Below are positions 7,319 through 43,888 of a DNA stretch of 64,000 nucleotides, piece by piece. The notes beneath the pieces are model-generated. The model saw only the letters and a program-made list of their open reading frames with translations. It was not told where the DNA came from and searched no databases. The stretch lies in the sequence record MZ501074; one strand, written 5' to 3'. Source of the stretch: Escherichia phage HildyBeyeler. Position 1 is the stretch's first letter, and each line of letters opens with the position of its first letter. The translations under genes and the position numbers were made by a program.

Positions 7319-7347
7319 TTGCTTTTTACTGCATATACTGGTATAAT
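7319..7347 (+). promoter_or_regulatory. sigma70-type promoter (TTGCTT-17-TATAAT)
   Basis: Hexamers read directly; upstream A/T tract; precedes phoH. Confidence 0.6.
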
Positions 7348-7423
7348 ATATTTGTAAGTTGATAAACAAGATCTCTTTGTTGATCCTCTGTTAGAAGCGA
7401 AGTACACTATAGGAGTGTTATGT

Positions 7424-8176
7424 ATGGGAAAAGCACGTCAAAAAAGAGAGAACCGCAATGGTTCAAGAAAGCGTGGCAACAAATATGAGAATAACGTAAT
7501 TCAGGCTGATTTTTCTAATGATTACGCTAACCCAGTTGCTAAATCCCTAGTAGGTAAAAACCGAGAGCAAAAATCATATATCAATATGATCAAGAACAAC
7601 ACAGTGACTGTGGGTATCGGTGAGCCAGGTACAGGTAAAACCTTTATCCCGTCTGTTCTTGCAGCTCAGGAACTCGTAGACATTCACTCAGATATTGAGC
7701 AAGTGATCCTCGTACGTCCTAATGAACCTCTAGGTAAGTCTCTTGGTATGCTTCCTGGTGATCTAGCAGAAAAGCTAGAGCCTTGGTTGGAGCCAATAGC
7801 TGATGGTATGAAATGGGCCATCGGTGATCATGCCTATAGGGGATACGTCGAACGTCAGAAAATTAAATTTTTGGCTATCGAACATGCTCGTGGCAGAACT
7901 TTCAACAACTCCTATGTAATTGTCGATGAAGCTCAGAATATTTCCGTTGAGGCAATGATTTGTCTCCTAACTCGTGTAGGACAAGACTGCCGTTTAATTA
8001 TCTGCGGAGATATAGCTCAGAAAGACATTAAAGGTGACTCAGGTCTAGCACTCCTTATGGAAGTCTATGAGAAATACGAAAATGCCCCCTTCTCAATGAT
8101 CGAATTGATTGATAACGTTCGTTCTGCTGAGTCTAAAGCATTCTACGATATTTTTAAAGACATGGGGAAGGTGTAA
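7424..8176 (+). CDS. phoH: PhoH-like ATPase
   Basis: Walker A GEPGTGKTF and VDEAQN; ATG 7424 with AGGAG 8 nt upstream (track start 7415 is GTG). Confidence 0.8.
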   Translation: MGKARQKRENRNGSRKRGNKYENNVIQADFSNDYANPVAKSLVGKNREQKSYINMIKNNTVTVGIGEPGTGKTFIPSVLAAQELVDIHSDIEQVILVRPNEPLGKSLGMLPGDLAEKLEPWLEPIADGMKWAIGDHAYRGYVERQKIKFLAIEHARGRTFNNSYVIVDEAQNISVEAMICLLTRVGQDCRLIICGDIAQKDIKGDSGLALLMEVYEKYENAPFSMIELIDNVRSAESKAFYDIFKDMGKV

Positions 8177-8177
8177 T

Positions 8178-8375
8178 ATGGGAGACGTTGTACATCTACA
8201 CCGAAAAACTAAAATACATCGTACTTCACTGAGTGCTGCTAATATGATTACACGTAAGGAAGGGGAAGAAAGTCCTAAGACTACCCTAGCGTGGAAAATT
8301 GTAACCTCAAATCCAAATCGGCCCTTCAATTATAACGAACTAAGTACCTCAATAGATATTCTGCTGAGAACTTAA
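8178..8375 (+). CDS. hypothetical small protein
   Basis: ATG directly after phoH stop; in frame with track ORF 8109-8375. Confidence 0.3.
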   Translation: MGDVVHLHRKTKIHRTSLSAANMITRKEGEESPKTTLAWKIVTSNPNRPFNYNELSTSIDILLRT

Positions 8376-8519
8376 GTGGCCAAAAACTAGACTGACAACA
8401 CAGAAGGCCTGGGTATGAAAGTACTCGGGCCTTTTCTATCAGAAAATTTTATTTGCCAAATGACTGAGAATAAAGTAAACTATTTCCTAAATCCTGATAA
8501 CTATAAAAAGGAAAGCCAA

Positions 8520-10853
8520 ATGAGCCATCGCATTGAAAAGGTAATTAAACGTGACGGTACTGTAGAAGACTTTGCTCCTGAAAAACTCAATGGTTGGGCA
8601 GAGTATGGTTGCAAAACAGTTGATGTAAGTTGGTCTGCCATTACTATGGCTGCTCAAAAAACTCTGCCTAAAGGGGTTGTAGATTCCGACACTCTGATGG
8701 ATGCGTTAATTAAAGCTGCTGAAAGTCTTATCAAAGATAATCCAGCATACGACGTGCCAGCAAAGGAATTACGTCTTGCGCAGATGCGTAAACGCCTTTA
8801 TGATTCCTTTGAACCACCTTCTCTACGCTTCTTCCACGATCATATGGTTAGTGTAGGTGCATGGGAAGACATGAGTGCATGGATTACCGATGAGCAATTT
8901 GAAGCTCTGAATCAGGTTATCGACCATGATCGTGACCGTCTTTTCACTAGTGGAGGACTGAAACAATTCTTTGATAAGTATTCCCGTCGTAACATAGCCA
9001 CCGGTGAAATTTATGAAACCCCGCAGTTTGCCTACATGGGTATGGCAATGGCGATGCTATCTCAACCTAACTGGACAATTCTCGATGCAATCGACCTATA
9101 CAACGCAATGTCACTCCACAAAATCAACGTTCCTACGCCGCCACTGGTTGGTCTGCGCTCTAGTGATCGTGGATTTGCTAGTTGTTGCCTCGTTGATTCC
9201 ACTGACACATTGGATTCAATCGACACAGCCGAGCACATCGTTTTTAAAATGGTCGCAGCCAGAGCGGGAATCGGGTATCATCTTGAAAGCAGATCAATTG
9301 CTGATCCGGTGCGAAATGGGGCATTCCCGCATTCCGGAAAACTGCCATATTATCGACACATTGACCGCTCAGTAAAGGCCAACACTCAGCAAACTCGTGG
9401 TGGTTCTGCTACAGTGTCTTATCCATACTTTGATCCTGAAATCATTCAGTTGATGCAGGTTAAGCAACAACGTGCTACAGACGAGAATAAAATCGATAAG
9501 ATGGATTATTCTCTGAGCTTCAACAATCTTTTGTTAAAACGTTATCTTAAAAATGAAGATATTACGCTAATGTCATACTTCTATGCTCCGGAAGTTCATG
9601 AAGCGTTTTATAGTGATGACGAGGCTAAATTTGAAGAAATCTATGTGGCAGCGGAGAAACGTGTGGCATCTCTTACAAAGATCGACCACGAAGGAAAAAC
9701 AGTTCCAGCAGCTCCTAAAGTCTCTGCAAAAGAAATCCTAGATACTTGGCTGCGTATCCGAATGGAAACAGGACGTATGTATGCCCACCACATTGGGGAA
9801 TCTAATCGTCACGGTAACTTCCTTGATCCGATCCGTATGACAAACCTTTGTGTTGAAATTACTCAGCCTACACGCCCGTTCCATCATATCACGGAACTGT
9901 ATAAAACGAAAGAGCAGCTTGACCAAATGAAGCCGGAGGATATTGGGGAAGTATCTCTATGTAACTTAGGTGGTGTTGTACTAGGACGCATGGAATCTCT
10001 AGCTGAGTGGGAAAAAACTTGCTACATCCTCCTGAAATTCGTTGATACAATTATTGAAATTCAGGATTATCCGTTCCCAACTATGGAATATACGGCTAAG
10101 AAACGTCGTAATGTTGGTATTGGCCTGATGAACGCAGCAGGTGCAATGGCAGCAGAAGGTCTGGCTTATGAAGGTATTGAAGCCCGTAACTGGATTCACC
10201 GTGAGGCTGAAAAACTGTCTTACTTCCTGCATAAAGCCTCTGTACGCCTAGCTAAAGAACAGGGTGCATGTGAGTGGTTTGATCGTACTAAACCATCTAA
10301 AGGAATTCTGGTAATCGACACATACAAGAAAACTGTTGATGAGCTGGTATCCGTAGGTCTAGAAATGGATTGGGAATCTCTGCGTGCAGATATTCTGAAA
10401 TACGGTATGCGTAACTCTGTTCTGACTGCGCAGATGCCTGGAGAAAGTTCCTCTGTACTATTGGGTGTTACCAACTCAATTGAGCCACCTCGTAGGATTG
10501 TATCTATCAAGGGTAGTGCAGTGAATAAAGTAATTGCAATTGCTCCGGGTGCAACTGATTGGGATACTCTCATGAGCTATAAACTGGCCTATGATATTGA
10601 TCGCACTGAGTGGATCAAATGGAACGCCGTTTACCAAAAATTCTTGAGCCAGTCATCAAGTTTCCAGATGTATTATGATTACTCTAAATTCGAGAATGAA
10701 ATCATTCCTGGCCCAGTAGTAGTTCGTGACTTTATGACTGCGGTTAAGTATGGTATAAAGACCTGGTATTATGCTAACTTTAACACTGCGAATGGTGGAG
10801 GAGCTGGTGAAGAGGCGGCAACAGGTTGTGCATCAGGCGGTTGTCAGTTATAA
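8520..10853 (+). CDS. nrdA: ribonucleotide reductase large subunit (class Ia)
   Basis: ATP-cone KRDGTVEDF, NLCVEI active-site loop, C-terminal CASGGC tail; ATG 8520 has AAGGAAA RBS (track start 8415). Confidence 0.9.
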   Translation: MSHRIEKVIKRDGTVEDFAPEKLNGWAEYGCKTVDVSWSAITMAAQKTLPKGVVDSDTLMDALIKAAESLIKDNPAYDVPAKELRLAQMRKRLYDSFEPPSLRFFHDHMVSVGAWEDMSAWITDEQFEALNQVIDHDRDRLFTSGGLKQFFDKYSRRNIATGEIYETPQFAYMGMAMAMLSQPNWTILDAIDLYNAMSLHKINVPTPPLVGLRSSDRGFASCCLVDSTDTLDSIDTAEHIVFKMVAARAGIGYHLESRSIADPVRNGAFPHSGKLPYYRHIDRSVKANTQQTRGGSATVSYPYFDPEIIQLMQVKQQRATDENKIDKMDYSLSFNNLLLKRYLKNEDITLMSYFYAPEVHEAFYSDDEAKFEEIYVAAEKRVASLTKIDHEGKTVPAAPKVSAKEILDTWLRIRMETGRMYAHHIGESNRHGNFLDPIRMTNLCVEITQPTRPFHHITELYKTKEQLDQMKPEDIGEVSLCNLGGVVLGRMESLAEWEKTCYILLKFVDTIIEIQDYPFPTMEYTAKKRRNVGIGLMNAAGAMAAEGLAYEGIEARNWIHREAEKLSYFLHKASVRLAKEQGACEWFDRTKPSKGILVIDTYKKTVDELVSVGLEMDWESLRADILKYGMRNSVLTAQMPGESSSVLLGVTNSIEPPRRIVSIKGSAVNKVIAIAPGATDWDTLMSYKLAYDIDRTEWIKWNAVYQKFLSQSSSFQMYYDYSKFENEIIPGPVVVRDFMTAVKYGIKTWYYANFNTANGGGAGEEAATGCASGGCQL

Positions 10854-10861
10854 TAAAAACA

Positions 10862-10890
10862 AGGAGATCTTCGGGTCTCCTTTTTCTTTG
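10862..10890 (+). terminator. rho-independent terminator
   Basis: GGAGATCTTCGGGTCTCC hairpin followed by TTTTTCTTT. Confidence 0.6.
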
Positions 10891-10899
10891 AAATTTTAC

Positions 10900-10928
10900 T
10901 TGCTAATCGCTACCAGATTTGCTATAAT
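10900..10928 (+). promoter_or_regulatory. sigma70-type promoter (TTGCTA-17-TATAAT)
   Basis: Hexamers read directly. Confidence 0.6.
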
Positions 10929-10954
10929 ATCTCCATTAGTTAAGGAGATTAGTT

Positions 10955-11470
10955 TTGATAACACAAGATGAATTAAAAAGGATTCTGGAGTATAATCCAG
11001 ATGAAGGAACATTTACTTGGTTAAATAACCAGGAAGTACACAATAAAGTAAGGGGACTACCTGCTGGCTGTTTAAAACCCCACTCAGTAGATCCTAACCG
11101 AAAAGACTTAGTAATACAAATCAAGGGTAAGAAGTATCCCGCACAAAATATTGCTTTCCTGTACATGACAGGAAACTTACCTAAAGTTATGGTTGACCAT
11201 ATAGATGGAGATTCACTAAACTATAAGTGGGCTAATCTAAGAGAAGCAGACTGGCAGTTAAATAGTCAAAATAGAAAAACTAGTAAAAACAATATATTGG
11301 GTACTAAGAATATTCGGAAGAAAGGGTCTGGATTTCAAGTTAGAAAATCCATTAACGGAAAAGAATATGTGAAAACTCTCCCAACTCTAGAAGAGGCGAT
11401 AGAGTATCGAGATTCTTTAATCCTCTCTATAACCAAAGATCCAACACTACTTAGAAACACAGATAAATAG
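10955..11470 (+). CDS. HNH homing endonuclease (free-standing, between nrdA and nrdB)
   Basis: VDHIDGD...N..WANLR HNH motif; TTG start with AAGGAG RBS. Confidence 0.75.
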   Translation: MITQDELKRILEYNPDEGTFTWLNNQEVHNKVRGLPAGCLKPHSVDPNRKDLVIQIKGKKYPAQNIAFLYMTGNLPKVMVDHIDGDSLNYKWANLREADWQLNSQNRKTSKNNILGTKNIRKKGSGFQVRKSINGKEYVKTLPTLEEAIEYRDSLILSITKDPTLLRNTDK

Positions 11471-11478
11471 GAGAACTA

Positions 11479-14014: not shown

Positions 14015-14029
14015 ATATTTAAATTTCAT

Positions 14030-14058
14030 TTGCTTATTTAGTGAAATTTAAATATAAT
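14030..14058 (+). promoter_or_regulatory. sigma70-type promoter
   Basis: TTGCTT-17-TATAAT. Confidence 0.55.
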
Positions 14059-14083
14059 ATATTTTATAAATTGGAGGTATATA

Positions 14084-14841: not shown

Positions 14842-14861
14842 TAAGTAAATTAAAAATTCAA

Positions 14862-14890
14862 TTGCTTAAAGCCCTCTAATTTAGTATAAT
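14862..14890 (+). promoter_or_regulatory. sigma70-type promoter
   Basis: TTGCTT-17-TATAAT. Confidence 0.6.
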
Positions 14891-14917
14891 ATTCGTATTG
14901 AAAGTGAGGAGGGCTTT

Positions 14918-15202: not shown

Positions 15203-15648
15203 AGATTACTGAATTTAAAGGTACTTATAGTTTTTTATCTAACTTTTATTTATCACCAATTACTTTCGAATATCTAAATGAGATATGGCATGCTGATACT
15301 GTAGAACATGCTTTTCAGGCTATGAAATCCGACCAAAAAGATGATGTAGCTCATGTGCTGCGCTCCCTAAATGCAGGAGTTGCCAAACGTAGAGGACGTA
15401 AATTAACTCTGCGCTCTGACTGGGATAAGGTAAAAGATGATGTAATGTTAGAGCTTTTACGGTTAAAGTTTGCAATCCCTGATTTGAGGGACAAACTGTT
15501 AGCAACAAAAAATGCAACTTTGATCGAAGGAAATACCTGGGGAGATACATACTGGGGTGTTTGCCGAGGCATCGGGGATAATACTTTAGGAGTTCTTTTG
15601 ATGCAGGTAAGGTCTGAAATTAAAAGAAGTTTACAGTTAATAAATTAA
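15199..15648 (+). CDS. NADAR-domain (YbiA-like) protein
   Basis: FLSNFY, EHAFQAMK and WGD..WG motifs typical of NADAR/DUF1768. Confidence 0.55.
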   Translation: MKITEFKGTYSFLSNFYLSPITFEYLNEIWHADTVEHAFQAMKSDQKDDVAHVLRSLNAGVAKRRGRKLTLRSDWDKVKDDVMLELLRLKFAIPDLRDKLLATKNATLIEGNTWGDTYWGVCRGIGDNTLGVLLMQVRSEIKRSLQLIN

Positions 15649-15656
15649 AAATTCAT

Positions 15657-15685
15657 TTGCTAAACGCTTCAAATTCTAGTATAAT
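15657..15685 (+). promoter_or_regulatory. sigma70-type promoter
   Basis: TTGCTA-17-TATAAT. Confidence 0.6.
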
Positions 15686-15723
15686 ATACTTCATAAATTG
15701 ATAAACAAAAAGGAAAATAAATA

Positions 15724-16545: not shown

Positions 16546-17247
16546 ATGAAAGTAAAACCATTTGGTATGCTAGATATTGAATCTCTAGGAACTCCGGGGG
16601 ATTGTGGTACTACTCATATCGCAATGCCTTCTTTCGCTTTTGTGGCTATGCATGGGATTGATAAAGACCCTGACTTAGTATTTGCTACTTTGGATGTGCA
16701 GGATCAGCTTAATTCTGGTGCCAAAGTTACAGCATCTACTCTAGCATTCTGGATGGATCAAGCTAAAAATAGCCCGTCTGCTATTCACATTATGGAAGCT
16801 ATGAAGGAACGTAATCCAAAACTGATTGCCTTCCAAAATGGTAAACATCATTGCACTACTAAATTAGGCTCAAACTATGCTGCCTTCTCTATGGCTCAAA
16901 ATATTATGGAGTTGGCTCTAGGCGAAAATGCTTTGTATTATGGCAATGGCCCAGAGTTTGATATGACTATCTACTCTGCAAACACGTTCCATGCTGGAAC
17001 CAATGAAGAGGTAGTTCCGTGGAAATTCTGGAATTTAGGCAATGTTCGATCTCTTCGTAATCTCTGGATGCAAGCGGGTTATAGTTACAAAGATCTAGAG
17101 GCTGAAGGTATTAGCTGGGCAAAAGCTAAAATGGAGAAGATGGACACCATTCGTTATGGGATCTATCCGGTTAAGCACGACCCAGCATTCGATGCCCTAG
17201 TTGAGGGCTATTGTGTTGCAGCTATGATCGAAAAAATGAAAATTTGA
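16546..17247 (+). CDS. DEDDh-type 3-5 exonuclease-like protein
   Basis: LDIESLG (exo I) and KHDPAFDA (exo III) motifs. Confidence 0.5.
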   Translation: MKVKPFGMLDIESLGTPGDCGTTHIAMPSFAFVAMHGIDKDPDLVFATLDVQDQLNSGAKVTASTLAFWMDQAKNSPSAIHIMEAMKERNPKLIAFQNGKHHCTTKLGSNYAAFSMAQNIMELALGENALYYGNGPEFDMTIYSANTFHAGTNEEVVPWKFWNLGNVRSLRNLWMQAGYSYKDLEAEGISWAKAKMEKMDTIRYGIYPVKHDPAFDALVEGYCVAAMIEKMKI

Positions 17248-17248
17248 T

Positions 17249-17277
17249 TTGCTTCCGGCTCCAAAATTCTGTATAAT
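17249..17277 (+). promoter_or_regulatory. sigma70-type promoter
   Basis: TTGCTT-17-TATAAT. Confidence 0.6.
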
Positions 17278-17318
17278 ATATTTATAAATTTGAGAAAACA
17301 ATAAAAGGAAAAACAAAT

Positions 17319-18193: not shown

Positions 18194-18576
18194 TAATTTA
18201 AAAGCTAGTAAATCGGTAGACGAAAGCCCAAGCATCTTACCTCGCAGCAGCGGTTGAAATACGAGGTTAAATAAGACCGCTGACCATACTATAAAGTATA
18301 ATCTATTGGAGATTATGTTTATTACATCAGACATTTAATCTGACACGTAAAAACAAAGCGTCGTTGATATTACCGACACAACTTCAAAGATCAACATTTA
18401 AGTATGAAAGCTGAAAAGTTTAAAGAACTCAAACTTCTAAACTTCTAAAGCTAAAAGATGCAAAGTATTCGTTGATGATTCAAACCCTAGATCAAAGGTA
18501 CATGGCTCATAAGATATGGCCTGTGGCGCCTCTAGGCTGTTTATCGGTTTACTAGTTTCACAATTTAAAAATGTAT

Positions 18577-18605
18577 TTGCTAATTTATTAAGTTATCTGT
18601 ATAAT
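18577..18605 (+). promoter_or_regulatory. sigma70-type promoter
   Basis: TTGCTA-17-TATAAT. Confidence 0.6.
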
Positions 18606-18635
18606 ATATTTTTAAATTGATGAAACGAGGCTATT

Positions 18636-19469: not shown

Positions 19470-19919
19470 ATGAAGGCAGCTTTGCTTTTAGTAGCTGCCC
19501 TTACCTTCAGCTTCAATAGTCATGCGACCTACGACTCAAAGCAGATTGATTGCATTGCAAAAAATATCTACTTCGAAGCACGAGGTGAGGGCATAAAGGG
19601 AATGACGGCGATTGCACACGTTACTAAAAACCGTGTTAACTCTGGTACTTTTCCTGATTCTTACTGTAAAGTAGTATATCAGTCTAACCAGTTCTCTTGG
19701 GTATCTAAGAGACCAAAAGTTGATAAAACTGATGAGGCTTGGAAAACCGCCAAGAATTTAGCTAGAGTGATATACTACGTTGATTCACCACAAGATCCTA
19801 CACATGGAGCGTTATACTTCCATAGTGGTAAAGATAAACCGCGCTGGACAAAGAAGTTTAAGAAAACAACTAAGATTGAGGGACATACATTTTATAAGCC
19901 TGTTGTCACTAAAACTTAA
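19470..19919 (+). CDS. secreted SleB/CwlJ-like cell-wall hydrolase
   Basis: Signal peptide then NIYFEARGE...AIAHVTKNR...CKVVYQSNQFSW motif. Confidence 0.5.
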   Translation: MKAALLLVAALTFSFNSHATYDSKQIDCIAKNIYFEARGEGIKGMTAIAHVTKNRVNSGTFPDSYCKVVYQSNQFSWVSKRPKVDKTDEAWKTAKNLARVIYYVDSPQDPTHGALYFHSGKDKPRWTKKFKKTTKIEGHTFYKPVVTKT

Positions 19920-19927
19920 AAATTTAT

Positions 19928-19956
19928 TTGCTTAAATACTTAAACTTCTGTATAAT
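19928..19956 (+). promoter_or_regulatory. sigma70-type promoter
   Basis: TTGCTT-17-TATAAT. Confidence 0.6.
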
Positions 19957-19987
19957 ACTTTCATAAATTAATGAGAGGAAGCGAAAT

Positions 19988-20158: not shown

Positions 20159-20601
20159 TGGGAGAGAATATTTTAGATGTTTTGCGTAGAGCTTTGCAGG
20201 ATTCTAAGTTTAATGGTTCTGATAAAGAAGTCGCTAAAAGCTATCAGACCATAATCGGGGATCTTCAGCGTATTGATAAAGATTTCATCACTTCTGAACA
20301 ATTTGTGTCTTATCTCAAAGCTCAACTAAAAAGCATTAACCAGATGAAAGCTAAACTTCATGGTCAAGATCTTGATAGTTATAGCTTGCAGTCCGCTCAG
20401 TATGAATACATTCTAAATAAGTGGTTGCAGGAGTATCTGCCTCCTCAGTTATCTGATACTGAGATTCGTAAATACTTTGCAGAATTAGTTAAGCTAAACC
20501 CTGGAATTACAAAAGGTATGCTGATGAAAGCGATTAAGGAAGAATTTCCTGGGCGTTATGATGGTGGTACTGCTGCTCAGATTGCTGGCGAATTTAATTA
20601 A
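20158..20601 (+). CDS. hypothetical protein
   Basis: ORF track. Confidence 0.5.
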   Translation: MGENILDVLRRALQDSKFNGSDKEVAKSYQTIIGDLQRIDKDFITSEQFVSYLKAQLKSINQMKAKLHGQDLDSYSLQSAQYEYILNKWLQEYLPPQLSDTEIRKYFAELVKLNPGITKGMLMKAIKEEFPGRYDGGTAAQIAGEFN

Positions 20602-20609
20602 AAATTTAT

Positions 20610-20638
20610 TTGCTAAATGCCTATAAATTCTGTATAAT
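20610..20638 (+). promoter_or_regulatory. sigma70-type promoter
   Basis: TTGCTA-17-TATAAT; drives ORF-free region. Confidence 0.55.
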
Positions 20639-20861
20639 ATATTAATAAATTAGAGAACAGCGGGCCGATTACGCTGAGTGCAGAATCCAAACCGGAGTGC
20701 ATTGAATAGAGTCGGTGGGTTAGTTGTAAAACTAGTACACAGTGGGCGGCAATCCCGGTTAGTGGCTAGAACGTGTAAAATGGGGCGTCTGAAACCTCTC
20801 CCCTAAACTCTTCTCTAGTTTATAAATAGTGGGGTGTGGAAATCACTTATGTAGTAACACT

Positions 20862-22556: not shown

Positions 22557-22717
22557 AGGTAGAGGATAAGTGTGTCTCTTTGGTCACTCAGCTATGACAA
22601 ATACTTTACACTATATCACATTGAAAATCAAGTGGGGATAACAATTTTGGGGTCTATCCACTTACCTGCTACCCTTAAGCATCCTGTTATTTTCCTCTAA
22701 AAAGTTAAAAAATTCAA

Positions 22718-22746
22718 TTGCTTGAATGCTAAATTCTCTGTATAAT
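22718..22746 (+). promoter_or_regulatory. sigma70-type promoter
   Basis: TTGCTT-17-TATAAT. Confidence 0.6.
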
Positions 22747-22778
22747 ATACTTATAAATTTGAGAGAGAGGAATCTAGT

Positions 22779-23297
22779 ATGACTGTTGATGAACTAACAG
22801 AACATCTCTTATCTAGAGGGTTTGATACAGATAAGTATCATTGCTGGTTAAGTCCGGAAGGATGGCTAACAGTCCCGTTGTATGACTTCTCTGGGATGTT
22901 GAGAGGCTATCAGACTTATAATCCTTCTGCTCCAAAAGGTCATGGTAAGTGCCCCTTTGAAGCTAAATATTTTACTTATTCAACTACACAGTGTGTATGG
23001 GGATTAGAAACTCTCAATGGAGATGAAAAAGTAGTATTGATTGCTGAATCTGTATTTAAGGCAGTTGCGTTACATAACGCTGGTTATCCAGCCCTGGCAA
23101 TGTTGGGTTCTTCCCCCGGAAAAGCATTGTTAAAGCAATTGAAATTATTACCTTTTAAATTGGTAGCTGTCGGAGATAATGATCCTGCGGGTGAAAAATT
23201 TGCTAGAAAATTAAACGGCTTTGTTTCTCCTGTAGATGTAGATGAGATGTCTACCGAAAACTTGAAAAATTTTCTTGCTATGAAGCTAAATTTCTAA
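22779..23297 (+). CDS. Toprim-domain protein
   Basis: VVLIAES (Glu) and VGDNDPAGE (DxD) Toprim motifs. Confidence 0.45.
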   Translation: MTVDELTEHLLSRGFDTDKYHCWLSPEGWLTVPLYDFSGMLRGYQTYNPSAPKGHGKCPFEAKYFTYSTTQCVWGLETLNGDEKVVLIAESVFKAVALHNAGYPALAMLGSSPGKALLKQLKLLPFKLVAVGDNDPAGEKFARKLNGFVSPVDVDEMSTENLKNFLAMKLNF

Positions 23298-23303
23298 TAT
23301 AAT
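23275..23303 (+). promoter_or_regulatory. sigma70-type promoter embedded in 3-prime end of CDS
   Basis: TTGCTA-17-TATAAT directly upstream of tRNA-Ser. Confidence 0.5.
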
Positions 23304-23317
23304 ATATTTATAAATTC

Positions 23318-23406
23318 GGAAGAATAGCATAACGGTATTGCAGCAGATTGCTAATCTGTCGGTTTGAAATATAGCCTTGTGGGTTCGATTCCCACTTCTT
23401 CCGCCA
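23318..23406 (+). tRNA. tRNA-Ser (anticodon GCT), class II
   Basis: GGAAGAA/TTCTTCC acceptor, loop TTGCTAA, long variable arm, T-loop TTCGATT, CCA. Confidence 0.7.
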
Positions 23407-23412: not shown

Positions 23413-23490
23413 GGTTCTCAAGCTCATATGGTATGAGCACCCAGCTCATAACTGGAAGGTACGTAGGTTCGAATCCTCGGGGAGCCACCA
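23413..23490 (+). tRNA. tRNA with CAT anticodon (Met or Ile2)
   Basis: Acceptor with two GU pairs, D-arm GCTC/GAGC, loop CTCATAA, CCA. Confidence 0.5.
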
Positions 23491-24453: not shown

Positions 24454-24543
24454 CTCCTCCAAACAGAATTTTTAAAAATGTACTTGCCTTTTGCTTTAAA
24501 TTTCTGGTATAATAGTTATATAAATTGATGAAGGAGTTAACGA

Positions 24544-24819
24544 ATGCAAAATCGTGTTATAGCAACTGGTATTGAAAGTGCAATCTGTAAATCCTGGGAA
24601 GGCTGGGAAGGTGAGATTGAATGGCTTTATTTCTACGATGTAGAACTTCTGCCGGAAATTAAAGCTAAATGTGTTGAAGCTGGCATGGCTCCAGATGCAA
24701 AAGCTGATATTGATATTTCAATGTCTGAACTTAAAGGTCGTGTAGTTACCGTTAGTAATGAGGGCGAAGAAGTTTTTGAACTTCCGTTCTCCTTAGCTGT
24801 CACTCCTAAGTTCGACTAA
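24544..24819 (+). CDS. hypothetical protein
   Basis: ORF track; AAGGAG RBS. Confidence 0.45.
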   Translation: MQNRVIATGIESAICKSWEGWEGEIEWLYFYDVELLPEIKAKCVEAGMAPDAKADIDISMSELKGRVVTVSNEGEEVFELPFSLAVTPKFD

Positions 24820-24828
24820 CTAATACAG

Positions 24829-24866
24829 CACTGAGCAAGTCCTTTAAAATTTGACTTGCTCAGTGC
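24829..24866 (+). terminator. perfect 14-bp hairpin overlapping next promoter
   Basis: GCACTGAGCAAGTC...GACTTGCTCAGTGC; downstream TTGCTC-17-TATAAT. Confidence 0.5.
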
Positions 24867-25018
24867 CTTAAAACTTGGTATAATAGTTATCTAATTTGGA
24901 AAGTTCTTTTTAAGGTAGTTCTTACTTTAGCAGAGTAAACTTTCGGCAGATGGTGGCAGCCACTTTACCGATATTCCATAGTCAGTGCCGCAAACACTGG
25001 CTACCTTAAAGAGAATTT

Positions 25019-25280: not shown

Positions 25281-25355
25281 GCACCTTTAGCTGAGATGGA
25301 TTAGCGCTTGCCTGAAGAGCTTGAGAGGTTGGATCGTTACCAACGGGGTGCACCA
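25281..25355 (+). tRNA. tRNA, anticodon uncertain (GAA or CTG)
   Basis: GCACCTT/GGGGTGC acceptor, unusual T-loop ATCGTTA, CCA. Confidence 0.45.
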
Positions 25356-25372: not shown

Positions 25373-25645
25373 ATGCATCCTGAAAACTTCTTTATTTACT
25401 GCGCGGATAAGTCGCTGAAACGTAGAATTAACAAAGTCTATCATTATCGTGCTAGTCAACAGCCTTATGTATACGCTTTTGACGGTGATCACATTCCACT
25501 AGAACAATTATCTTGTGATTACATGATATTGAAGAACTTTGACGAGACGAAGATCTCAAGCGTTTATAATCGACAGAATCCATTAACGTGGAAATATAAG
25601 AAGAAAAAGAAAGGCATCAAATTCTTAAAAAATATAGTTGCTTAG
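25373..25645 (+). CDS. hypothetical protein
   Basis: ATG 25373 with AAGGAG RBS (track start 25358 is TTG). Confidence 0.4.
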   Translation: MHPENFFIYCADKSLKRRINKVYHYRASQQPYVYAFDGDHIPLEQLSCDYMILKNFDETKISSVYNRQNPLTWKYKKKKKGIKFLKNIVA

Positions 25646-25666
25646 TTTCCAAAAGTTCTGTATAAT
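25638..25666 (+). promoter_or_regulatory. sigma70-type promoter
   Basis: TTGCTT-17-TATAAT. Confidence 0.6.
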
Positions 25667-25714
25667 AATTACATAAATTGAACTGGAGAAGCAACATGAT
25701 AGAACAAGATAAAT

Positions 25715-26578: not shown

Positions 26579-26579
26579 T

Positions 26580-27276: not shown

Positions 27277-27425
27277 ACACTATAAAGTTTACTTATTATG
27301 TAGGTTCCGATAGACCGGCGGGTCTATTCTGGCATTTAAGAGAGGTCTCGCAAACTTCTTTGTCAGCCGTGGGGTTGATAGCCCCCAGGTGGCCTACACA
27401 ATAAGTAAATTTATGAAAAATGTAG

Positions 27426-27454
27426 TTGCTATTTAGCTTAATTCTCTGTATAAT
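27426..27454 (+). promoter_or_regulatory. sigma70-type promoter
   Basis: TTGCTA-17-TATAAT. Confidence 0.6.
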
Positions 27455-27486
27455 ATATTCTATAAAGTGAAGAGAAGGAAAGCAAA

Positions 27487-28214: not shown

Positions 28215-28232
28215 ATTTCAAGAAAAACGCAG

Positions 28233-28261
28233 TTGCTTAATGCTTAATTTCTTGTTATAAT
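28233..28261 (+). promoter_or_regulatory. sigma70-type promoter
   Basis: TTGCTT-17-TATAAT; no ORF for 330 bp downstream. Confidence 0.6.
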
Positions 28262-28264
28262 ATT

Positions 28265-28597
28265 TATATAAATTGATGCGAAAATAGCTGCCTAGATACC
28301 AGGTGTATGACGTCTACACTAGCAGAGCTACCGAAAAAGAGATCCCCAGGATAAACGTCGTAGCAAAATTAGTCTGGTATCCATCAATTTAGTTCACTAA
28401 GGTATTAGCTCGACCTAGGACTGGCTGCCAAAAAGCACGATCCCTACGATTCGGGAGAAGTTCTAGATTAGTCCACTAGATTCAGCGGCAACTGAATAGT
28501 GTATTGGGTTTGCGAGATGACGCAGTTCCTTCCGCTCGAAGCGAAGGTGCTGTAGTTACGCCGAGCTAATAGCCTTAGTAAACTAGAAGGAATATCT
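28265..28597 (+). ncRNA. candidate promoter-driven non-coding RNA region
   Basis: ORF-free (longest ORF 15 codons), several imperfect hairpins, no tRNA T-loop. Confidence 0.35.
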
Positions 28598-28861
28598 ATG
28601 TTTGATCTGAAAGATATGGCTAAAAAGTTAATGTCGCAACGCTATCAACAAAGAACACTCCATAAACGAGTTTCCGATATGAAAAAACGTTGCAATAATG
28701 CTAAATATTATAATAGTCTTAATAAACTATCTGATGCAGATCTTGTTAAAACTGAAGCAATATATAATCACTTAGCAGTAGAGTATGATATAGTGAATAA
28801 AGATATTGCTAGGCTAGAAGCTCAGATTGTAGCAACTGTACTTGACATGTACAGGGAATAA
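28598..28861 (+). CDS. hypothetical protein
   Basis: ORF track; GAAGGAA RBS. Confidence 0.45.
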   Translation: MFDLKDMAKKLMSQRYQQRTLHKRVSDMKKRCNNAKYYNSLNKLSDADLVKTEAIYNHLAVEYDIVNKDIARLEAQIVATVLDMYRE

Positions 28862-31267: not shown

Positions 31268-31435
31268 ATGTTTAAACTGTTAGTAGTTATCTGGTATAGT
31301 CAATCAAATAGAGCGAATACCTCCCACGTTATAGACTTTACTACTAAAAATGAAGCTGAAAAAGCATATGCTAATTTAATAGAACGCAATAAAGAATCTC
31401 GTAGTATAGTTTATGAAGTGACTAAACTTTATTAA
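31268..31435 (+). CDS. hypothetical small protein
   Basis: ATG 31268 after tRNA; AAGGAC RBS. Confidence 0.35.
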   Translation: MFKLLVVIWYSQSNRANTSHVIDFTTKNEAEKAYANLIERNKESRSIVYEVTKLY

Positions 31436-31443
31436 AAATTCAT

Positions 31444-31472
31444 TTGCTTTCCCTCTTATTTATTGTTATAAT
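31444..31472 (+). promoter_or_regulatory. sigma70-type promoter
   Basis: TTGCTT-17-TATAAT. Confidence 0.6.
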
Positions 31473-31502
31473 ATTTATATAAATTAATGAGAGGGAAACC
31501 AA

Positions 31503-31793
31503 ATGAAACGTTATCTTTCTGTTATGTTCCAAACCGGCGGCCAAAGATACACCTATGAATTTCCACCTTCCTGGAAAATCAGGGAAGGTGATCAAATAGT
31601 TGTGTTGACACCGCGTGAAGAATATAAAGTAGTGACGGTTAAACAAGTATTTCCAAAAGATCATGAACCAGCTATAGGCATCCGATATAAGATGATTCAT
31701 GGCGTGGTTCGTCAAGTACCACGAACTGAGGTAGAAGTAGATAATACTGGAGAAACTAAATTCCATTATACTTCTTACTTAGACAGTGTGTGA
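31503..31793 (+). CDS. hypothetical protein
   Basis: ORF track; GAGAGGGAAA RBS. Confidence 0.45.
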   Translation: MKRYLSVMFQTGGQRYTYEFPPSWKIREGDQIVVLTPREEYKVVTVKQVFPKDHEPAIGIRYKMIHGVVRQVPRTEVEVDNTGETKFHYTSYLDSV

Positions 31794-31807
31794 TGTAAAT
31801 ATTTTAA

Positions 31808-31884
31808 TGCTTCGGTAGCTTAGCGATCTAAAGCACTCGGCTGATAACCGAGAGATCAGGGGTTTAAATCCCTCCCGGAGTACC
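31808..31884 (+). tRNA. tRNA-Ile (anticodon GAT)
   Basis: D-stem GCTT/AAGC, perfect stem CTCGG/CCGAG, loop CTGATAA, CCA. Confidence 0.65.
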
Positions 31885-31981
31885 AAATCTAGGAATTAAG
31901 ACTATGCGTCCAGGAAAGTTTAAAAAAGCTAGTTGGTCTAAAGAGTACAAAGAATACTTACTTAGCCTAGTAAAACGTAAT

Positions 31982-33304: not shown

Positions 33305-33321
33305 ATTCTGAAATAATTCAT

Positions 33322-33350
33322 TTGCTAAACCTCTCTTTTCTTGCTATAAT
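33322..33350 (+). promoter_or_regulatory. sigma70-type promoter
   Basis: TTGCTA-17-TATAAT. Confidence 0.6.
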
Positions 33351-33380
33351 ATATTTATAAATTGATGAGAGAGGTTTGAA

Positions 33381-35352: not shown

Positions 35353-35446
35353 GATTGACACTAAGTCAGCTTACTAGCAAAAGCAAATAATGACAAAGCC
35401 CAGCCTGCACTTTTGCAACTGGGCTATTTTTATAATAAAATTTTAG

Positions 35447-35475
35447 TTGCTTAGATGCCCAAACTTTTGTATAAT
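35447..35475 (+). promoter_or_regulatory. sigma70-type promoter
   Basis: TTGCTT-17-TATAAT. Confidence 0.6.
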
Positions 35476-35506
35476 ATGTTTATAGATTGAGGCAAGAGGA
35501 TTAAAT

Positions 35507-39991: not shown

Positions 39992-40004
39992 GATAAAAAA
40001 GTAG

Positions 40005-40033
40005 TTGACTTTTAGCCCTAGTTATTATATAAT
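40005..40033 (+). promoter_or_regulatory. sigma70-type promoter
   Basis: TTGACT-17-TATAAT. Confidence 0.6.
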
Positions 40034-40066
40034 ATATACATAAATTAGTTAAGAGAGGTATATATT

Positions 40067-40757: not shown

Positions 40758-40763
40758 TAAACC

Positions 40764-40796
40764 AAGCCTGATCTTAGCGGATCAGGCTTTTATTTT
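40764..40796 (+). terminator. rho-independent terminator
   Basis: AGCCTGAT...ATCAGGCT stem followed by TTTTATTTT. Confidence 0.65.
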
Positions 40797-40798
40797 AC

Positions 40799-40827
40799 TT
40801 GCTTTTTGCTAAAAATTTTGGTATAAT
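40799..40827 (+). promoter_or_regulatory. sigma70-type promoter
   Basis: TTGCTT-17-TATAAT. Confidence 0.55.
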
Positions 40828-40884
40828 ACTTATATAAATTGATAAGAAGGCTATCTACGCACTACAAAAAATAGGAGTATTCCA

Positions 40885-41262
40885 ATGAACTATGCATATC
40901 TAATTATTAATAATAACGTAGTTTGTGGTACTCGCGCTGTTGAGATGGGTATTACAGAAGAAGAGTATAAGTCACTTCCAGAAAAGGAACAACAATATTA
41001 TGTTGAAGAAGCTGCTTGGGAGTATGCTGAGGTTTATCCCGAACAACGTGAAGATCGCGTTACTATTGTTGTTTCTTTGGGGCTGGTTGGCTGTGATACC
41101 GAAGTTGATACAGACCTAGAGACTTTAGAGGAGTGGGAAGAGTTAGATATTTCAGCTAAAAACTCCTTAATCCGTGAAGCCTTTTGGGAAGCTGTAGATT
41201 GCCACGTAGTATTTGAGCCTAATGATGAAGAGGCTGAAAAACATACTAACCATTGGAGATAA
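40885..41262 (+). CDS. hypothetical acidic protein
   Basis: ORF track; GGAG RBS. Confidence 0.45.
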   Translation: MNYAYLIINNNVVCGTRAVEMGITEEEYKSLPEKEQQYYVEEAAWEYAEVYPEQREDRVTIVVSLGLVGCDTEVDTDLETLEEWEELDISAKNSLIREAFWEAVDCHVVFEPNDEEAEKHTNHWR

Positions 41263-41266
41263 TTAA

Positions 41267-41512
41267 ATGTTAGCAGAGCGAGCAAAACGTTTAGCTAGGG
41301 TTAATAGAGCTGCTCTTCTCAAGAGCAGGAAGAAATCATATAAGTATGTTAAAAGACGGATTATAGCTTCTGTAGAGGCTGGAGGTTCTTATGTGCAGTT
41401 TAACCGTGACGAAATTAGTTATGAAGCTATAAAAGCCCTCAATAAAGATGGTTATACTCTCAAACTATCTAATGAGTATGGCACAACTATTTTAACTGTT
41501 ATTTGGGAATAA
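41267..41512 (+). CDS. hypothetical protein
   Basis: ORF track. Confidence 0.4.
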   Translation: MLAERAKRLARVNRAALLKSRKKSYKYVKRRIIASVEAGGSYVQFNRDEISYEAIKALNKDGYTLKLSNEYGTTILTVIWE

Positions 41513-42366: not shown

Positions 42367-42653
42367 TGAATGATAGAATGAAAGAAGTACAAGAAGAGTT
42401 ACGAGCAATGCGTATTGATGCCCTTCGTTGGAGGGCATTAGTTAATGCTTTCGTAAAAGGAGATACCGGAGTAATATATTCTGGAATAGCAGTCAATTTT
42501 TGTTTTAATTCTCCTGCTGAAATAGAGATAGAAACAAGGCTTACTACCTTCCTTAATGAGGTAGACCTTAAGGAAGGAGAGACTCCCGAGGAGTTTAAAA
42601 CTAGAGTATTAACTACCTGGGTTGATAATTTAATACAAAAAAGGAGTAAGTGA
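42366..42653 (+). CDS. hypothetical protein
   Basis: ORF track; ATGA overlap. Confidence 0.4.
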   Translation: MNDRMKEVQEELRAMRIDALRWRALVNAFVKGDTGVIYSGIAVNFCFNSPAEIEIETRLTTFLNEVDLKEGETPEEFKTRVLTTWVDNLIQKRSK

Positions 42654-43243
42654 TGAGGGTTAAATTCTGGTCAGACTTGCACTTAGACCACCCTGGAGCA
42701 CTACGTTTCCGTCCGTGGTTTAAGAACATGAAAGAGCACGATGAGTATATTCTAGATACTTTGTCCAAGCATATTGGTAAACGAACAAAACTTATTTTGC
42801 TAGGAGATATTGCAGTAGGTCGTGAAGGTCTGGCCAAATTAAAGTCGGTTATCCACAATGTCCCTAATCAACTCATTATGGGTAATCATGATGCGGAGCG
42901 TCAAGGACTGAGTATTAGGGACTTAGCGGAAGTTTATGACGATATTCAAGCTCTAGGCAAACAGACTGGAGGTGGCAAAAAGTTTTGGCTATCTCATTGC
43001 CCTTTGCACCCCAATGAGCTTCGGGGCAAATTAAATATTCACGGACACGTACATGCTACTTCTATACGTGACCCTCGTTACATCAATGTCTCATTTGAAA
43101 TGAGCAAAACTCCTATTCCTCTAGAAGATATTGTATCAGGTAAGTTTACTAGCTATGATAGAGTAGTTAATTGTACTACTGGCGAAGTATTACAAATAGG
43201 GGAAGATGTAGCTGCTGTATTACGTGGCGATATAAATGTCTAA
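42650..43243 (+). CDS. metallophosphoesterase
   Basis: SDLHLD, GD, GNHD and HGHVH motifs. Confidence 0.6.
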   Translation: MMRVKFWSDLHLDHPGALRFRPWFKNMKEHDEYILDTLSKHIGKRTKLILLGDIAVGREGLAKLKSVIHNVPNQLIMGNHDAERQGLSIRDLAEVYDDIQALGKQTGGGKKFWLSHCPLHPNELRGKLNIHGHVHATSIRDPRYINVSFEMSKTPIPLEDIVSGKFTSYDRVVNCTTGEVLQIGEDVAAVLRGDINV

Positions 43244-43351
43244 GTATATAGCTGGGGCTATAATTAAACGAGTCATACAAGCAGTAGCAATACTTATAAT
43301 CATTTGTATTGCTATTGGTACAGGACTAGGCATTTTAATTAAAAGTTTTAT

Positions 43352-43380
43352 TTGCTAAAATGCCTAAGTTTCTGTATAAT
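43352..43380 (+). promoter_or_regulatory. sigma70-type promoter
   Basis: TTGCTA-17-TATAAT. Confidence 0.6.
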
Positions 43381-43410
43381 TACTTTATAAATTGATGAGA
43401 GGGAAACAAA

Positions 43411-43842
43411 ATGAACAAAGTAGATAAAGCTCTAGTTTTTGCAGCAGCAGATAAGTTTGAACAAGTTAAAGCTACTTTCCGAACCCTGTTCCAGTCTTAC
43501 GTTCAGGATAAGTCTAATCCTATTTCTGAACGCTTGATGGTTTGGGAGTGTCATGCTTGCAATGCCTTGCTAATTGCTGATTACCGTAGTGATATAGATA
43601 AAGATCTTTGTGAAATCCTTATCCCCGAGGAAGCAGAACGTTATCAGTTAATCTCTTTTCAAGATTTAGCAGAACAGATCATCCCTGATGATCTTTGGGA
43701 CAAGTATTATGGTGATCCTGAAGACGAAGGAATGACTCCAGAAGCATGTATTGAACTGATCTGCAAAGATCATCCTGAAATTGCAGAAAAATTTGAGAAA
43801 GTTTTTGTTTCTGAGTTCTCCGGTGTTGTTAACGATTGGTAA
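43411..43842 (+). CDS. hypothetical protein
   Basis: ORF track; GAGAGGGAAA RBS. Confidence 0.45.
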   Translation: MNKVDKALVFAAADKFEQVKATFRTLFQSYVQDKSNPISERLMVWECHACNALLIADYRSDIDKDLCEILIPEEAERYQLISFQDLAEQIIPDDLWDKYYGDPEDEGMTPEACIELICKDHPEIAEKFEKVFVSEFSGVVNDW

Positions 43843-43859
43843 GTAATTAAAAAATTCAG

Positions 43860-43888
43860 TTGCTTCAAGCCTTAAAATTCTGTATAAT
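43860..43888 (+). promoter_or_regulatory. sigma70-type promoter
   Basis: TTGCTT-17-TATAAT. Confidence 0.6.

What the first reader, a model, noticed from the sequence alone, without database searches (positions are those of the whole stretch)
7319..43888. Family of more than 20 near-identical promoters with extended -10 and A/T-rich upstream elements
Most early transcription units start with AAAAATT(C/T)ATTTGCT(T/A)A...(C)TGTATAATAT, that is TTGCTT/TTGCTA, a 17-bp spacer and TATAAT, often with TG at -15/-14. This near-clonal promoter set implies extremely strong host-RNAP promoters. Some are embedded in coding 3-prime ends (23275) or overlap a terminator hairpin (24829-24884).
Basis: partly seen in the sequence, partly recalled or inferred. 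Interest (0 to 1): 0.4.

Follow-up and report, generated by a model that had tools for sequence, protein, structure and literature searches.

The report
T5-type early promoter family
The repeated motif is real, but it is the long-known set of strong host-polymerase promoters that phage T5 and its relatives place in front of their early genes and tRNAs, so the finding is correct and ordinary.

Summary
TTGCTW-N17-TATAAT occurs 22 times in the window against 0.10 expected; 20 hits lie on the + strand within 7319-43888. A profile scan adds 24484, 24856, 40005 and 1695(-).

The window is a T5-like phage (Demerecviridae), 98% identical to Salmonella phage Tennessee and inverted relative to the T5 map. 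Twenty window sites are positional orthologues of the 'putative early promoters' annotated in T5 record AY587007: 19 by alignment (T5P8-P31), and 1695(-) to T5P32 by sequence and order only. 62177(-) matches T5P41 (llp).

The same consensus is published for the T5-like phage AKFV33: TTGCTw, 17-18 bp, TATAATA, AAAAATT near -43, TAAATT at +1.

- The set is not clonal. Paralogues are 57% identical; window-T5 orthologues are 93%.
- Only 10 of 25 sites carry TG in the canonical extended -10 register. Eleven carry it one base closer to the -10.
- A conserved transcribed block was missed: ATAAATT at +1..+7, then a Shine-Dalgarno sequence. It is as constrained as the -10.
- The hairpin at 24828-24866 is selected but lacks a U-tract.

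A test of the promoters as recombination hot spots was negative. Side observation: promoter 28233 drives a conserved, structured, ORF-less RNA with no Rfam match.

Novelty: already known.

The parts
7307..7370 (+). Family promoter cassette (-47..+17); -35 at 7319; orthologue of T5P30; canonical TGn
10888..10951 (+). Family promoter; -35 at 10900; orthologue of T5P28; terminator hairpin 10861-10882 directly upstream
14018..14081 (+). Family promoter; -35 at 14030; orthologue of T5P27; homology to T5 breaks at +1
14850..14913 (+). Family promoter; -35 at 14862; orthologue of T5P26
15645..15708 (+). Family promoter; -35 at 15657; orthologue of T5P25; upstream gene's TAA at -46, inside the A-tract
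17237..17300 (+). Family promoter; -35 at 17249; T5 annotates only 'repeat c copy 4' in the corresponding area (correspondence inferred, not mapped)
18565..18628 (+). Family promoter; -35 at 18577; orthologue of T5P23
19916..19979 (+). Family promoter; -35 at 19928; orthologue of T5P22 (highest profile score, 61.9)
20598..20661 (+). Family promoter; -35 at 20610; heads the tRNA-rich region (tRNA-Ser at +217)
22706..22769 (+). Family promoter; -35 at 22718; drives the 172-aa ORF 22779-23297
23263..23326 (+). Family promoter embedded in the 3' end of ORF 22779-23297 (TAA at -15); tRNA-Ser starts at +9
24472..24536 (+). Family variant TTGCCT, spacer 18; orthologue of T5P20; drives the 91-aa ORF 24544-24819
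24844..24907 (+). Family variant TTGCTC; orthologue of T5P19; -35 lies in the 3' arm of the hairpin; tRNA-Tyr at +129
24828..24866 (+). Conserved inverted repeat (14-bp stem, 11-nt loop that holds the A/T-rich upstream block); no U-tract after it
25626..25689 (+). Family promoter; -35 at 25638; orthologue of T5P18; tRNA-Cys at +43
27414..27477 (+). Family promoter; -35 at 27426; orthologue of T5P17
28221..28284 (+). Family promoter; -35 at 28233; drives an ORF-less structured RNA (28268-28597)
31432..31495 (+). Family promoter; -35 at 31444; orthologue of T5P16
33310..33373 (+). Family promoter; -35 at 33322; orthologue of T5P14
35435..35498 (+). Family promoter; -35 at 35447; orthologue of T5P13
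39993..40056 (+). Weaker relative (TTGACT-17-TATAAT plus ATAAATT); orthologue of T5P11
40787..40850 (+). Family promoter fused to terminator 40764-40789 (its T-run replaces the A-tract); orthologue of T5P10
43340..43403 (+). Family promoter; -35 at 43352; orthologue of T5P9
43848..43911 (+). Family promoter; -35 at 43860; orthologue of T5P8
5027..5090 (-). Family promoter outside the stated range; terminator-fused; orthologue of T5P31
1644..1707 (-). Family variant TTGCAT outside the stated range; probable orthologue of T5P32 (by sequence and order; not covered by a blast alignment)
62126..62189 (-). Family promoter outside the early block; matches T5P41, the early promoter of llp, divergent from the pb5 homologue (62203-63990). 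Correspondence inferred from the T5 right-end annotation; not aligned.

Best explanation
These are the sigma-70-dependent early promoters of a T5-like phage. T5-like phages use the host RNA polymerase for all gene classes (PMC7472727) and scatter about 25 copies of a near-optimal promoter through the early region, roughly one every 1.6 kb.

Anatomy of one cassette:
- An A/T-rich block at -47..-37 (tTAAAAATTyAt). It resembles a proximal UP subsite, which would be read by the polymerase alpha C-terminal domain (inferred).
- The -35 hexamer TTGCTW.
- A 17-bp spacer with a conserved AAATTT stretch.
- A perfect -10, TATAAT, followed by A.
- An A/T-rich discriminator with consensus ATATT.
- A start at A, with initial transcribed sequence AUAAAUU.
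- For protein genes, a GAGAGG Shine-Dalgarno sequence at about +11..+17. The start codon lies 19-35 nt after +1 in 16 of the 25 strong members, and 19-27 nt in 14 of them.

The cassette therefore delivers both transcription and translation initiation directly in front of a gene. At tRNA-driving copies only the AUAAAUU part is kept.

Shown here: the enrichment, the anatomy, the co-orientation with genes, the positional orthology to T5's annotated promoters, and the pattern of constraint. Inferred from published T5 work, not tested on this sequence: polymerase binding, promoter strength and early timing.
For: - Enrichment: 22 matches against 0.10 expected; profile scores 39-62 bits against a shuffle maximum of 9.7.
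- Column conservation from -47 to +17.
- All sites are co-directional with the genes. In 16 of 25 strong members a Shine-Dalgarno sequence and start codon follow within 19-35 nt. Three sites lie directly before tRNAs.
- One-to-one positional mapping of 19 window sites to T5P8-P31, and of 1695(-) to T5P32 by sequence and order. T5P33 carries the classic N25 promoter sequence (identification from memory).
- 62177(-) matches T5P41, the early promoter of llp.
- Constraint between orthologues: 0/240 substitutions in the -10, 2/240 in the -35 and 1/280 at +1..+7, against 40/320 in spacer positions -29..-22.
- The same motif is present in T5 (30 sites), Tennessee (24), Eps7 (23) and the distant Pectobacterium phage My1 (13).
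- Literature: identical consensus in AKFV33 (PMC3326045); AKFV33 record note citing Wang et al. 2005; early-class discriminator ATATT and primer-extension support for T5 promoters (PMC7472727); N25 architecture (PMC12464699).
Against: - No transcription data exist for this particular phage. Start sites and strength are inferred from orthology.
- A generic sigma-70 consensus scan is not enriched over shuffles (51 against 53.3; 48 against 59.2). Support therefore rests on the family-specific pattern and its context.
- In T5, primer extension detected products for only 11 of 19 promoters tested (PMC7472727), so not every predicted site need be active in vivo.
- The discriminator is fairly variable between orthologues (9.2% substitutions), so 'ATATT' is only a loose consensus.
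Confidence: 0.93

Rival explanations
1. The repeats are mainly mobile or recombinogenic regulatory cassettes, like the promoter-early stem-loops of T4-type phages. Their mutual homology would drive gene-module shuffling, and that role, rather than promoter function alone, would explain their uniformity.
For: Of 99 unique structural breakpoints against five relatives, 17 fall within -60..+40 of a family start site, against 5.8 expected under a uniform model (p = 6e-5). Several lie inside the conserved core: 10930, 14066, 20652, 24902, 27470, 40847, 23288, 31432.
Against: - Promoter-bearing gene junctions are no more breakpoint-prone than promoter-less ones: 15/22 against 43/70 (odds ratio 1.35, p = 0.62). 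Size-matched: 14/21 against 11/17 (odds ratio 1.09, p = 1.0).
- Paralogues share only 34% identity at free spacer positions, while window-T5 orthologues share 91%. For 16 of 17 sites the best T5 match is the positional orthologue. There is therefore no sign of homogenisation or exchange between copies.
Confidence: 0.05
2. The conserved +1..+17 block is not there for the polymerase. It would be a shared RNA-level or operator-level control site: a common 5' leader recognised by a phage translational repressor or nuclease, or a DNA site for a phage factor that shuts off the whole early class together.
For: - +1..+7 is as constrained as the -10 hexamer (1/280 substitutions).
- The motif is class-specific. 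Only one weak hit (54629, 29.5 bits) lies in the pre-early terminal-repeat region 49650-60206.
- Klimuk et al. propose that the early-specific discriminator underlies the differential action of gpT5.026 (PMC7472727).
Against: - ATAAATT is retained at copies that drive tRNAs, where no translation occurs: 23275, with the tRNA at +9, and 25638. This argues against a purely translational role.
- For N25 the initial transcribed sequence is already known to set promoter-escape efficiency (PMC12464699), which explains the constraint without an extra factor.
Confidence: 0.12
3. The pattern is a compositional artefact of an A/T-rich genome and has no function.
For: The genome is about 39% G+C, and generic promoter-like hexamer pairs are as common as in shuffles.
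Against: - 22 matches against 0.10 expected, with no shuffle above 1.
- Strict strand agreement with the genes and fixed distance to start codons.
- Conservation at orthologous positions across subfamilies.
Confidence: 0.01

Closest known systems
Bacteriophage T5 early promoters (T5P6-P38 and T5P41 in AY587007; classic P25, P26, P28 and N25 of Gentz & Bujard 1985; consensus TTGCTT-N17-18-TATAATA of Wang et al. 2005)
   Same: Same -35, spacer and -10. Same A-rich block near -43, ATATT-type discriminator and ATAAATT start region. Twenty window sites are positional orthologues, at 93% identity over the 17 pairs measured.
   Different: Nothing of kind. Individual sites differ by a few substitutions. 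Five sites (17249, 20610, 22718, 23275, 28233) have no T5 promoter mapped to them; T5 annotates 'repeat b/c' copies in several of the corresponding areas.
Promoter set of the T5-like phage AKFV33 (Niu et al. 2012, PMC3326045)
   Same: The published description is word-for-word the present observation: 32 promoters, TTGCTw, 17-18 bp, TATAATA, AAAAATT at -43, TAAATT at +1. The AKFV33 record annotates the orthologue of 24856 as a promoter.
   Different: A different phage isolate; no difference in the element.
Extended -10 (TGn) sigma-70 promoters
   Same: Ten of 25 members have TG at -15/-14 (TTGnTATAAT). In My1 most detected members have TGATATAAT.
   Different: Eleven members have TCTG abutting TATAAT (TG at -14/-13), which is not the canonical register, and four have no TG. 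All keep a good -35, so none depends on the extension.
UP-element promoters such as rrnB P1 (proximal subsite AAAAAARNR, from established knowledge of Estrem et al. 1999)
   Same: An A-tract at about -45..-41 directly upstream of the -35. An UP element is also described for N25 (PMC12464699).
   Different: Only a proximal-type block is conserved. In terminator-fused copies (5078, 40799) a T-run takes its place. Dependence on the alpha C-terminal domain was not tested.
T4-type promoter-early stem-loop cassettes (mobile regulatory cassettes; from memory of Arbiol et al. 2010)
   Same: Repeated early promoters, often next to hairpins, lying between small gene modules in a variable region.
   Different: No excess of rearrangement junctions beyond ordinary gene boundaries, and no homogenisation among copies.

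Membership tests
T5-type early promoters | -35 TTGCTW, 17-18 bp spacer, -10 TATAAT(A) | tested here: met
   22 strict matches against 0.10 expected; A at -6 in 21/22; variants with spacer 18 or one -35 change found by the profile.
T5-type early promoters | A/T-rich block around -43 (AAAAATT) | tested here: met
   A at -45..-42 in 18-21 of 22 sites; upstream pattern 22 matches against 1.09 expected.
T5-type early promoters | Conserved start region (A)TAAATT at +1 | tested here: met
   +1..+7 information 0.7-1.3 bits per column; 1/280 substitutions between orthologues.
T5-type early promoters | Early-class discriminator consensus ATATT (Klimuk et al. 2020) | tested here: met
   The consensus at -6..-2 is A-t-a-T-T, but it is loose: 9.2% substitutions between orthologues.
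T5-type early promoters | Position in the early region, co-directional with early genes and tRNAs, orthologous to T5 promoters | tested here: met
   Synteny map. Nineteen sites map by alignment to T5P8-P31 and 1695(-) to T5P32 by sequence and order. Fixed leader lengths. Near-absence from the pre-early repeat region.
T5-type early promoters | Recognised by E. coli sigma-70 holoenzyme; transcript starts at the predicted +1; early timing | not testable with these tools
   Known for T5 orthologues from the literature (PMC7472727; PMC12464699). No data for this phage.
Extended -10 promoters | TG at -15/-14, one base upstream of the -10 hexamer | tested here: not met
   Met by 10 of 25 members. Eleven have TG at -14/-13 and four have none. 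It is not a property of the family as a whole.
Intrinsic (rho-independent) terminator, for the hairpin 24828-24866 | Stable G+C-containing stem-loop | tested here: met
   14-bp stem, dG -26.9 kcal/mol, z -6.6. Pairing kept in 95.7% of cells, with two double-sided changes and one paired insertion.
Intrinsic (rho-independent) terminator, for the hairpin 24828-24866 | U-rich tract directly after the stem | tested here: not met
   The stem is followed by CTTAAAACTTGG. It is not reported by the terminator scan and not annotated as a terminator in T5.
Mobile regulatory cassettes (T4 promoter-early stem-loop type) | Rearrangement junctions concentrated at the cassettes beyond what gene boundaries explain | tested here: not met
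   Odds ratio 1.35 (p = 0.62); size-matched 1.09 (p = 1.0).

The most novel reading that the evidence does not exclude
The family may be more than a set of strong promoters. The invariant +1..+7 block, as constrained as the -10, could be a class-wide switch read by a phage factor, either on the polymerase or on the nascent 5' end, that turns all early units off together. At one member (24856) the -35 is built into an RNA hairpin kept by compensatory changes, which could couple 3'-end formation of the upstream transcript with initiation at the next unit. One member (28233) also drives an undescribed structured RNA.
Probability: 0.15. Interest if true: 0.45.

Novelty: already known. Interest (0 to 1): 0.1.

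Why it matters
The result confirms that a reader working from sequence alone correctly recognised a real regulatory family. That family has been known since the 1980s, is annotated in the T5 and AKFV33 records, and is the source of the 'T5 promoter' used in expression vectors (the last point from general knowledge, not checked here).

Practical value:
- It supplies a promoter map for an under-annotated T5-like genome. The closest record, Salmonella phage Tennessee, lists no promoters in the region examined.
- It gives a cleaner description of the element: the transcribed ATAAATT block is as constrained as the -10, and the TG dinucleotide falls into two registers.
- It yields two small leads: a selected hairpin that contains a -35, and a promoter-driven structured RNA in the tRNA region.

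Tried and rejected
- **Generic sigma-70 scans** were no better than shuffles and miss TTGCTT sites, so they were not used as evidence.
- **Promoters as recombination or module-shuffling hot spots:** tested with 99 breakpoints against five relatives. The apparent enrichment disappears when compared with promoter-less gene junctions. Rejected.
- **'Clonal' or recently duplicated promoters:** rejected by the orthologue-versus-paralogue comparison.
- **Hairpin 24828-24866 as a canonical terminator:** rejected for lack of a U-tract. A palindromic protein operator is less likely than an RNA structure, because phage RA40 carries a paired single-base insertion in both arms.
- **Rfam** at gathering threshold over the whole window, and at E <= 1 on 28240-28640, found only tRNAs.
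- **Gentz & Bujard 1985** (PMC214212) is not held in the library. Statements about it come from secondary citations and memory.
- **Literature searches** for T5 transcriptome or start-site maps and for stable RNAs in the T5 tRNA region found nothing usable.


Full report
**Observation**

The strict pattern TTGCTW-N17-TATAAT occurs 22 times in the 64-kb window. Dinucleotide-preserving shuffles give 0.10 on average and never more than 1. Two are on the - strand (5078, 62177). The upstream block AAAAATTYATTTGCTW, with up to 2 mismatches, gives 22 matches against 1.09 expected.

I built a two-block profile from the strict sites and scanned with spacers of 16-18. Members score 39-62 bits; the best score in shuffled sequence is 9.7. 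The scan recovered sites that were not in the training set: 24484 (TTGCCT, spacer 18), 24856 (TTGCTC) and 1695(-) (TTGCAT). It also found a weaker site at 40005 (TTGACT). A generic TTGACA/TATAAT scan is no better than shuffles (51 against 53.3; 48 against 59.2). The signal is therefore specific to this family.

**Anatomy**

Column statistics show conservation from -47 to +17:
- tTAAAAATTyAt at -47..-36;
- TTGCTW as the -35;
- a spacer with a free part (-29..-22) and a conserved A/T part (AAATTTCTG);
- TATAAT followed by A;
- a discriminator with consensus ATATT;
- A at +1, then TAAATT;
- a purine-rich GAGAGG around +11..+17.

In 16 of the 25 strong members a start codon with a Shine-Dalgarno sequence follows 19-35 nt after the predicted +1. 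Three sites sit in front of tRNAs: 23275 (tRNA-Ser at +9), 25638 (tRNA-Cys at +43) and 24856 (tRNA-Tyr at +129). Site 23275 keeps ATAAATT and has no room for a Shine-Dalgarno sequence, and 25638 also keeps it. This separates a transcription-level block (+1..+7) from a translation-level block.

Every site points the same way as the genes around it.

The upstream gene's stop codon lies inside -60..-1 for about 11 sites. In four cases it is the TAA inside the A-tract, at -46.

The TG dinucleotide falls into two registers. Ten of 25 strong members have TTGnTATAAT, the canonical extended -10 with TG at -15/-14. Eleven have TCTGTATAAT, with TG at -14/-13. Four have none.

**Source and orthology**

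The window is a T5-like phage of the Demerecviridae. Its best match is Salmonella phage Tennessee at 98.2%.
- Against T5 (AY587007) the window is inverted. Window 1-49000 matches the T5 early region.
- Window 49650-60206 matches the T5 terminal repeat, which carries the pre-early genes.
- The remainder corresponds to the llp/pb5 end of the T5 map, inferred from the T5 right-end annotation.

The T5 record annotates a numbered series of 'putative early promoters'. Nineteen window sites map one-to-one onto T5P8-P31 by alignment. 1695(-) matches T5P32 by sequence and order only, because no blast alignment covers it. 62177(-) matches T5P41, the early promoter of llp. T5P33, just outside the window, carries the classic N25 promoter sequence; that identification is from memory.

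The pre-early repeat region contains only one weak profile hit (54629, 29.5 bits), so the motif is class-specific.

The window-derived profile also finds 30 sites in T5 (1-80 kb), 24 in Tennessee, 23 in Eps7, and 13 in Pectobacterium phage My1, which belongs to a different subfamily.

**Constraint, not cloning**

Orthologous promoters (window against T5) are 93% identical overall and 91% identical at the free spacer positions. Paralogues within the window are 57% identical (maximum 79%) and 34% at those positions, which is about background. For 16 of 17 sites the best-matching T5 promoter is the positional orthologue.

Across 40 orthologous pairs with T5, Eps7, GEC_vB_N7 and Stokescottia, substitutions per element were:

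| Element | Substitutions |
|---|---|
| -10 hexamer | 0/240 |
| -35 hexamer | 2/240 |
| +1..+7 | 1/280 |
| spacer -29..-22 | 40/320 |
| discriminator | 22/240 |

The family is therefore a set of old, vertically inherited promoters held to one consensus by function. It is not a product of recent duplication or homogenisation.

**Literature**

- Niu et al. 2012 (PMC3326045) describe 32 promoters in the T5-like phage AKFV33: TTGCTw, 17-18 bp, TATAATA, AAAAATT upstream of -43 and TAAATT at +1. They call T5-type promoters among the most efficient known.
- The AKFV33 record labels the orthologue of 24856 as a promoter, citing the T5 consensus of Wang et al. 2005.
- Klimuk et al. 2020 (PMC7472727) state that all T5 gene classes use the host sigma-70 polymerase. 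They note that early promoters share ATATT in the discriminator, that primer extension detects many of the classic promoters, and that gpT5.026 binds the polymerase and shifts the balance between early and late transcripts.
- The Hsu laboratory (PMC12464699) describes N25 as TTGctt/17/TATAAT with an UP element and an UP-like A/T spacer. N25 is limited at promoter escape, and its initial transcribed sequence tunes productive output.

Together these explain each conserved block found here.

**Mechanism**

Shown here: motif, context, orthology and constraint.

Inferred from the T5 literature and from established knowledge of sigma-70 promoters: the A-tract is read by the alpha C-terminal domain, the hexamers by sigma regions 4.2 and 2.4, and TGn, where present, by region 3.0. 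The A/T-rich discriminator and the AUAAAUU start set open-complex and escape behaviour. The short leader with GAGAGG gives immediate translation. A high density of near-optimal promoters lets a phage without its own polymerase capture the host enzyme for its early genes and tRNAs.

**Hairpin at 24828-24866**

This is a 14-bp stem with an 11-nt loop (dG -26.9 kcal/mol, z -6.6). The loop carries the A/T-rich upstream block, and the 3' arm carries the -35 of promoter 24856.

It is conserved in 12 relatives. Stokescottia and KPP2018 carry two double-sided compensatory changes, one of which turns the -35 into TTGCCC. RA40 has a paired one-base insertion in both arms. Overall, 95.7% of cells are paired, and only 6 of 500 shuffles reach the observed number of double changes.

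No U-tract follows the stem, so it is not a canonical intrinsic terminator. A selected RNA structure at the 3' end of the upstream 91-aa gene is the most likely reading. Its function is open.

True terminator-promoter fusions do exist at 10861-10882/10900, at 40764-40789/40799 and at 5078(-).

**Novel idea tested and rejected**

Many homology breaks with relatives fall at the cassettes, so I tested whether the cassettes act as recombination junctions. Of 99 unique breakpoints, 17 lie within -60..+40 of a family start site, against 5.8 expected (p = 6e-5). However, promoter-bearing gene junctions are no more often broken than promoter-less ones (15/22 against 43/70, p = 0.62; size-matched 14/21 against 11/17, p = 1.0). 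The enrichment simply reflects promoters sitting at gene boundaries.

**Side observation**

Promoter 28233 is followed by about 330 nt with no ORF of 30 aa or more. The 3' 205 nt form a discrete block conserved in T5 (97%), Tennessee, Eps7, GEC_vB_N7 and Stokescottia. In most of these the promoter lies directly upstream of the block.

RNAalifold predicts a 22-bp closing helix around three hairpins. One hairpin is replaced in Eps7 and GEC_vB_N7, with eight pairs changed on both sides and kept. The single-sequence fold has z = -3.4. Rfam has no match, and the T5 record annotates nothing there. I did not find it in the literature searched. This deserves its own follow-up.

**Verdict**

The element is already known. 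Interest is low.

Noticed in passing
window 28268-28597 (conserved block about 28381-28585): An ORF-less transcript driven by family promoter 28233. The block is conserved (97% to T5 31718-31919) in all Markadamsvirinae relatives examined. The predicted structure is multi-branched with a 22-bp closing helix. One hairpin is swapped in Eps7 and GEC_vB_N7 with eight compensatory pairs. No Rfam match, not annotated in T5. Candidate undescribed phage non-coding RNA in the tRNA region.
   Followed up: partly
window 24828-24866: A hairpin containing the -35 of promoter 24856 is maintained by two double substitutions (Stokescottia, KPP2018) and a paired one-base insertion (RA40). One compensatory change alters the -35 hexamer itself.
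   Followed up: yes
window 7153-7181 (- strand): A perfect sigma-70 consensus, TTGACA-17-TATAAT (12/12), faces the nrdD-like 608-aa ORF (5121-6947). It lies back-to-back with family promoter 7319(+), forming a divergent promoter region. It is not of the TTGCTW family.
   Followed up: no
window 10955-11470: A 171-aa ORF, homologous to a T5 'putative endonuclease', sits immediately after promoter 10900. It is present in T5. The whole 523-bp segment is absent from Tennessee, GEC_vB_N7 and Stokescottia, with the junction at -5 of the promoter. This is typical of a homing-endonuclease insertion.
   Followed up: partly
window 23413-23487 and 25281-25352: Rfam's tRNA model reports two further tRNA-like sequences (38.2 and 33.4 bits) that ARAGORN did not call. 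They may be additional or degenerate phage tRNAs.
   Followed up: no
window 49650-60206 and 60206-64000: The window runs from the early region through a single copy of the terminal-repeat (pre-early) region straight into the llp/pb5 locus. The source assembly is therefore a permuted or collapsed-repeat version of a T5-type genome. Family promoter 62177(-) heads the llp homologue.
   Followed up: partly
window 54565-54629 (- strand): A half-member in the pre-early region. The -10 and start region match the family (TATAATatacatATAAATTAATGAGAAA, 25.4 bits), but the -35 half does not (TAGCCA, spacer 18). No ORF was found downstream.
   Followed up: no
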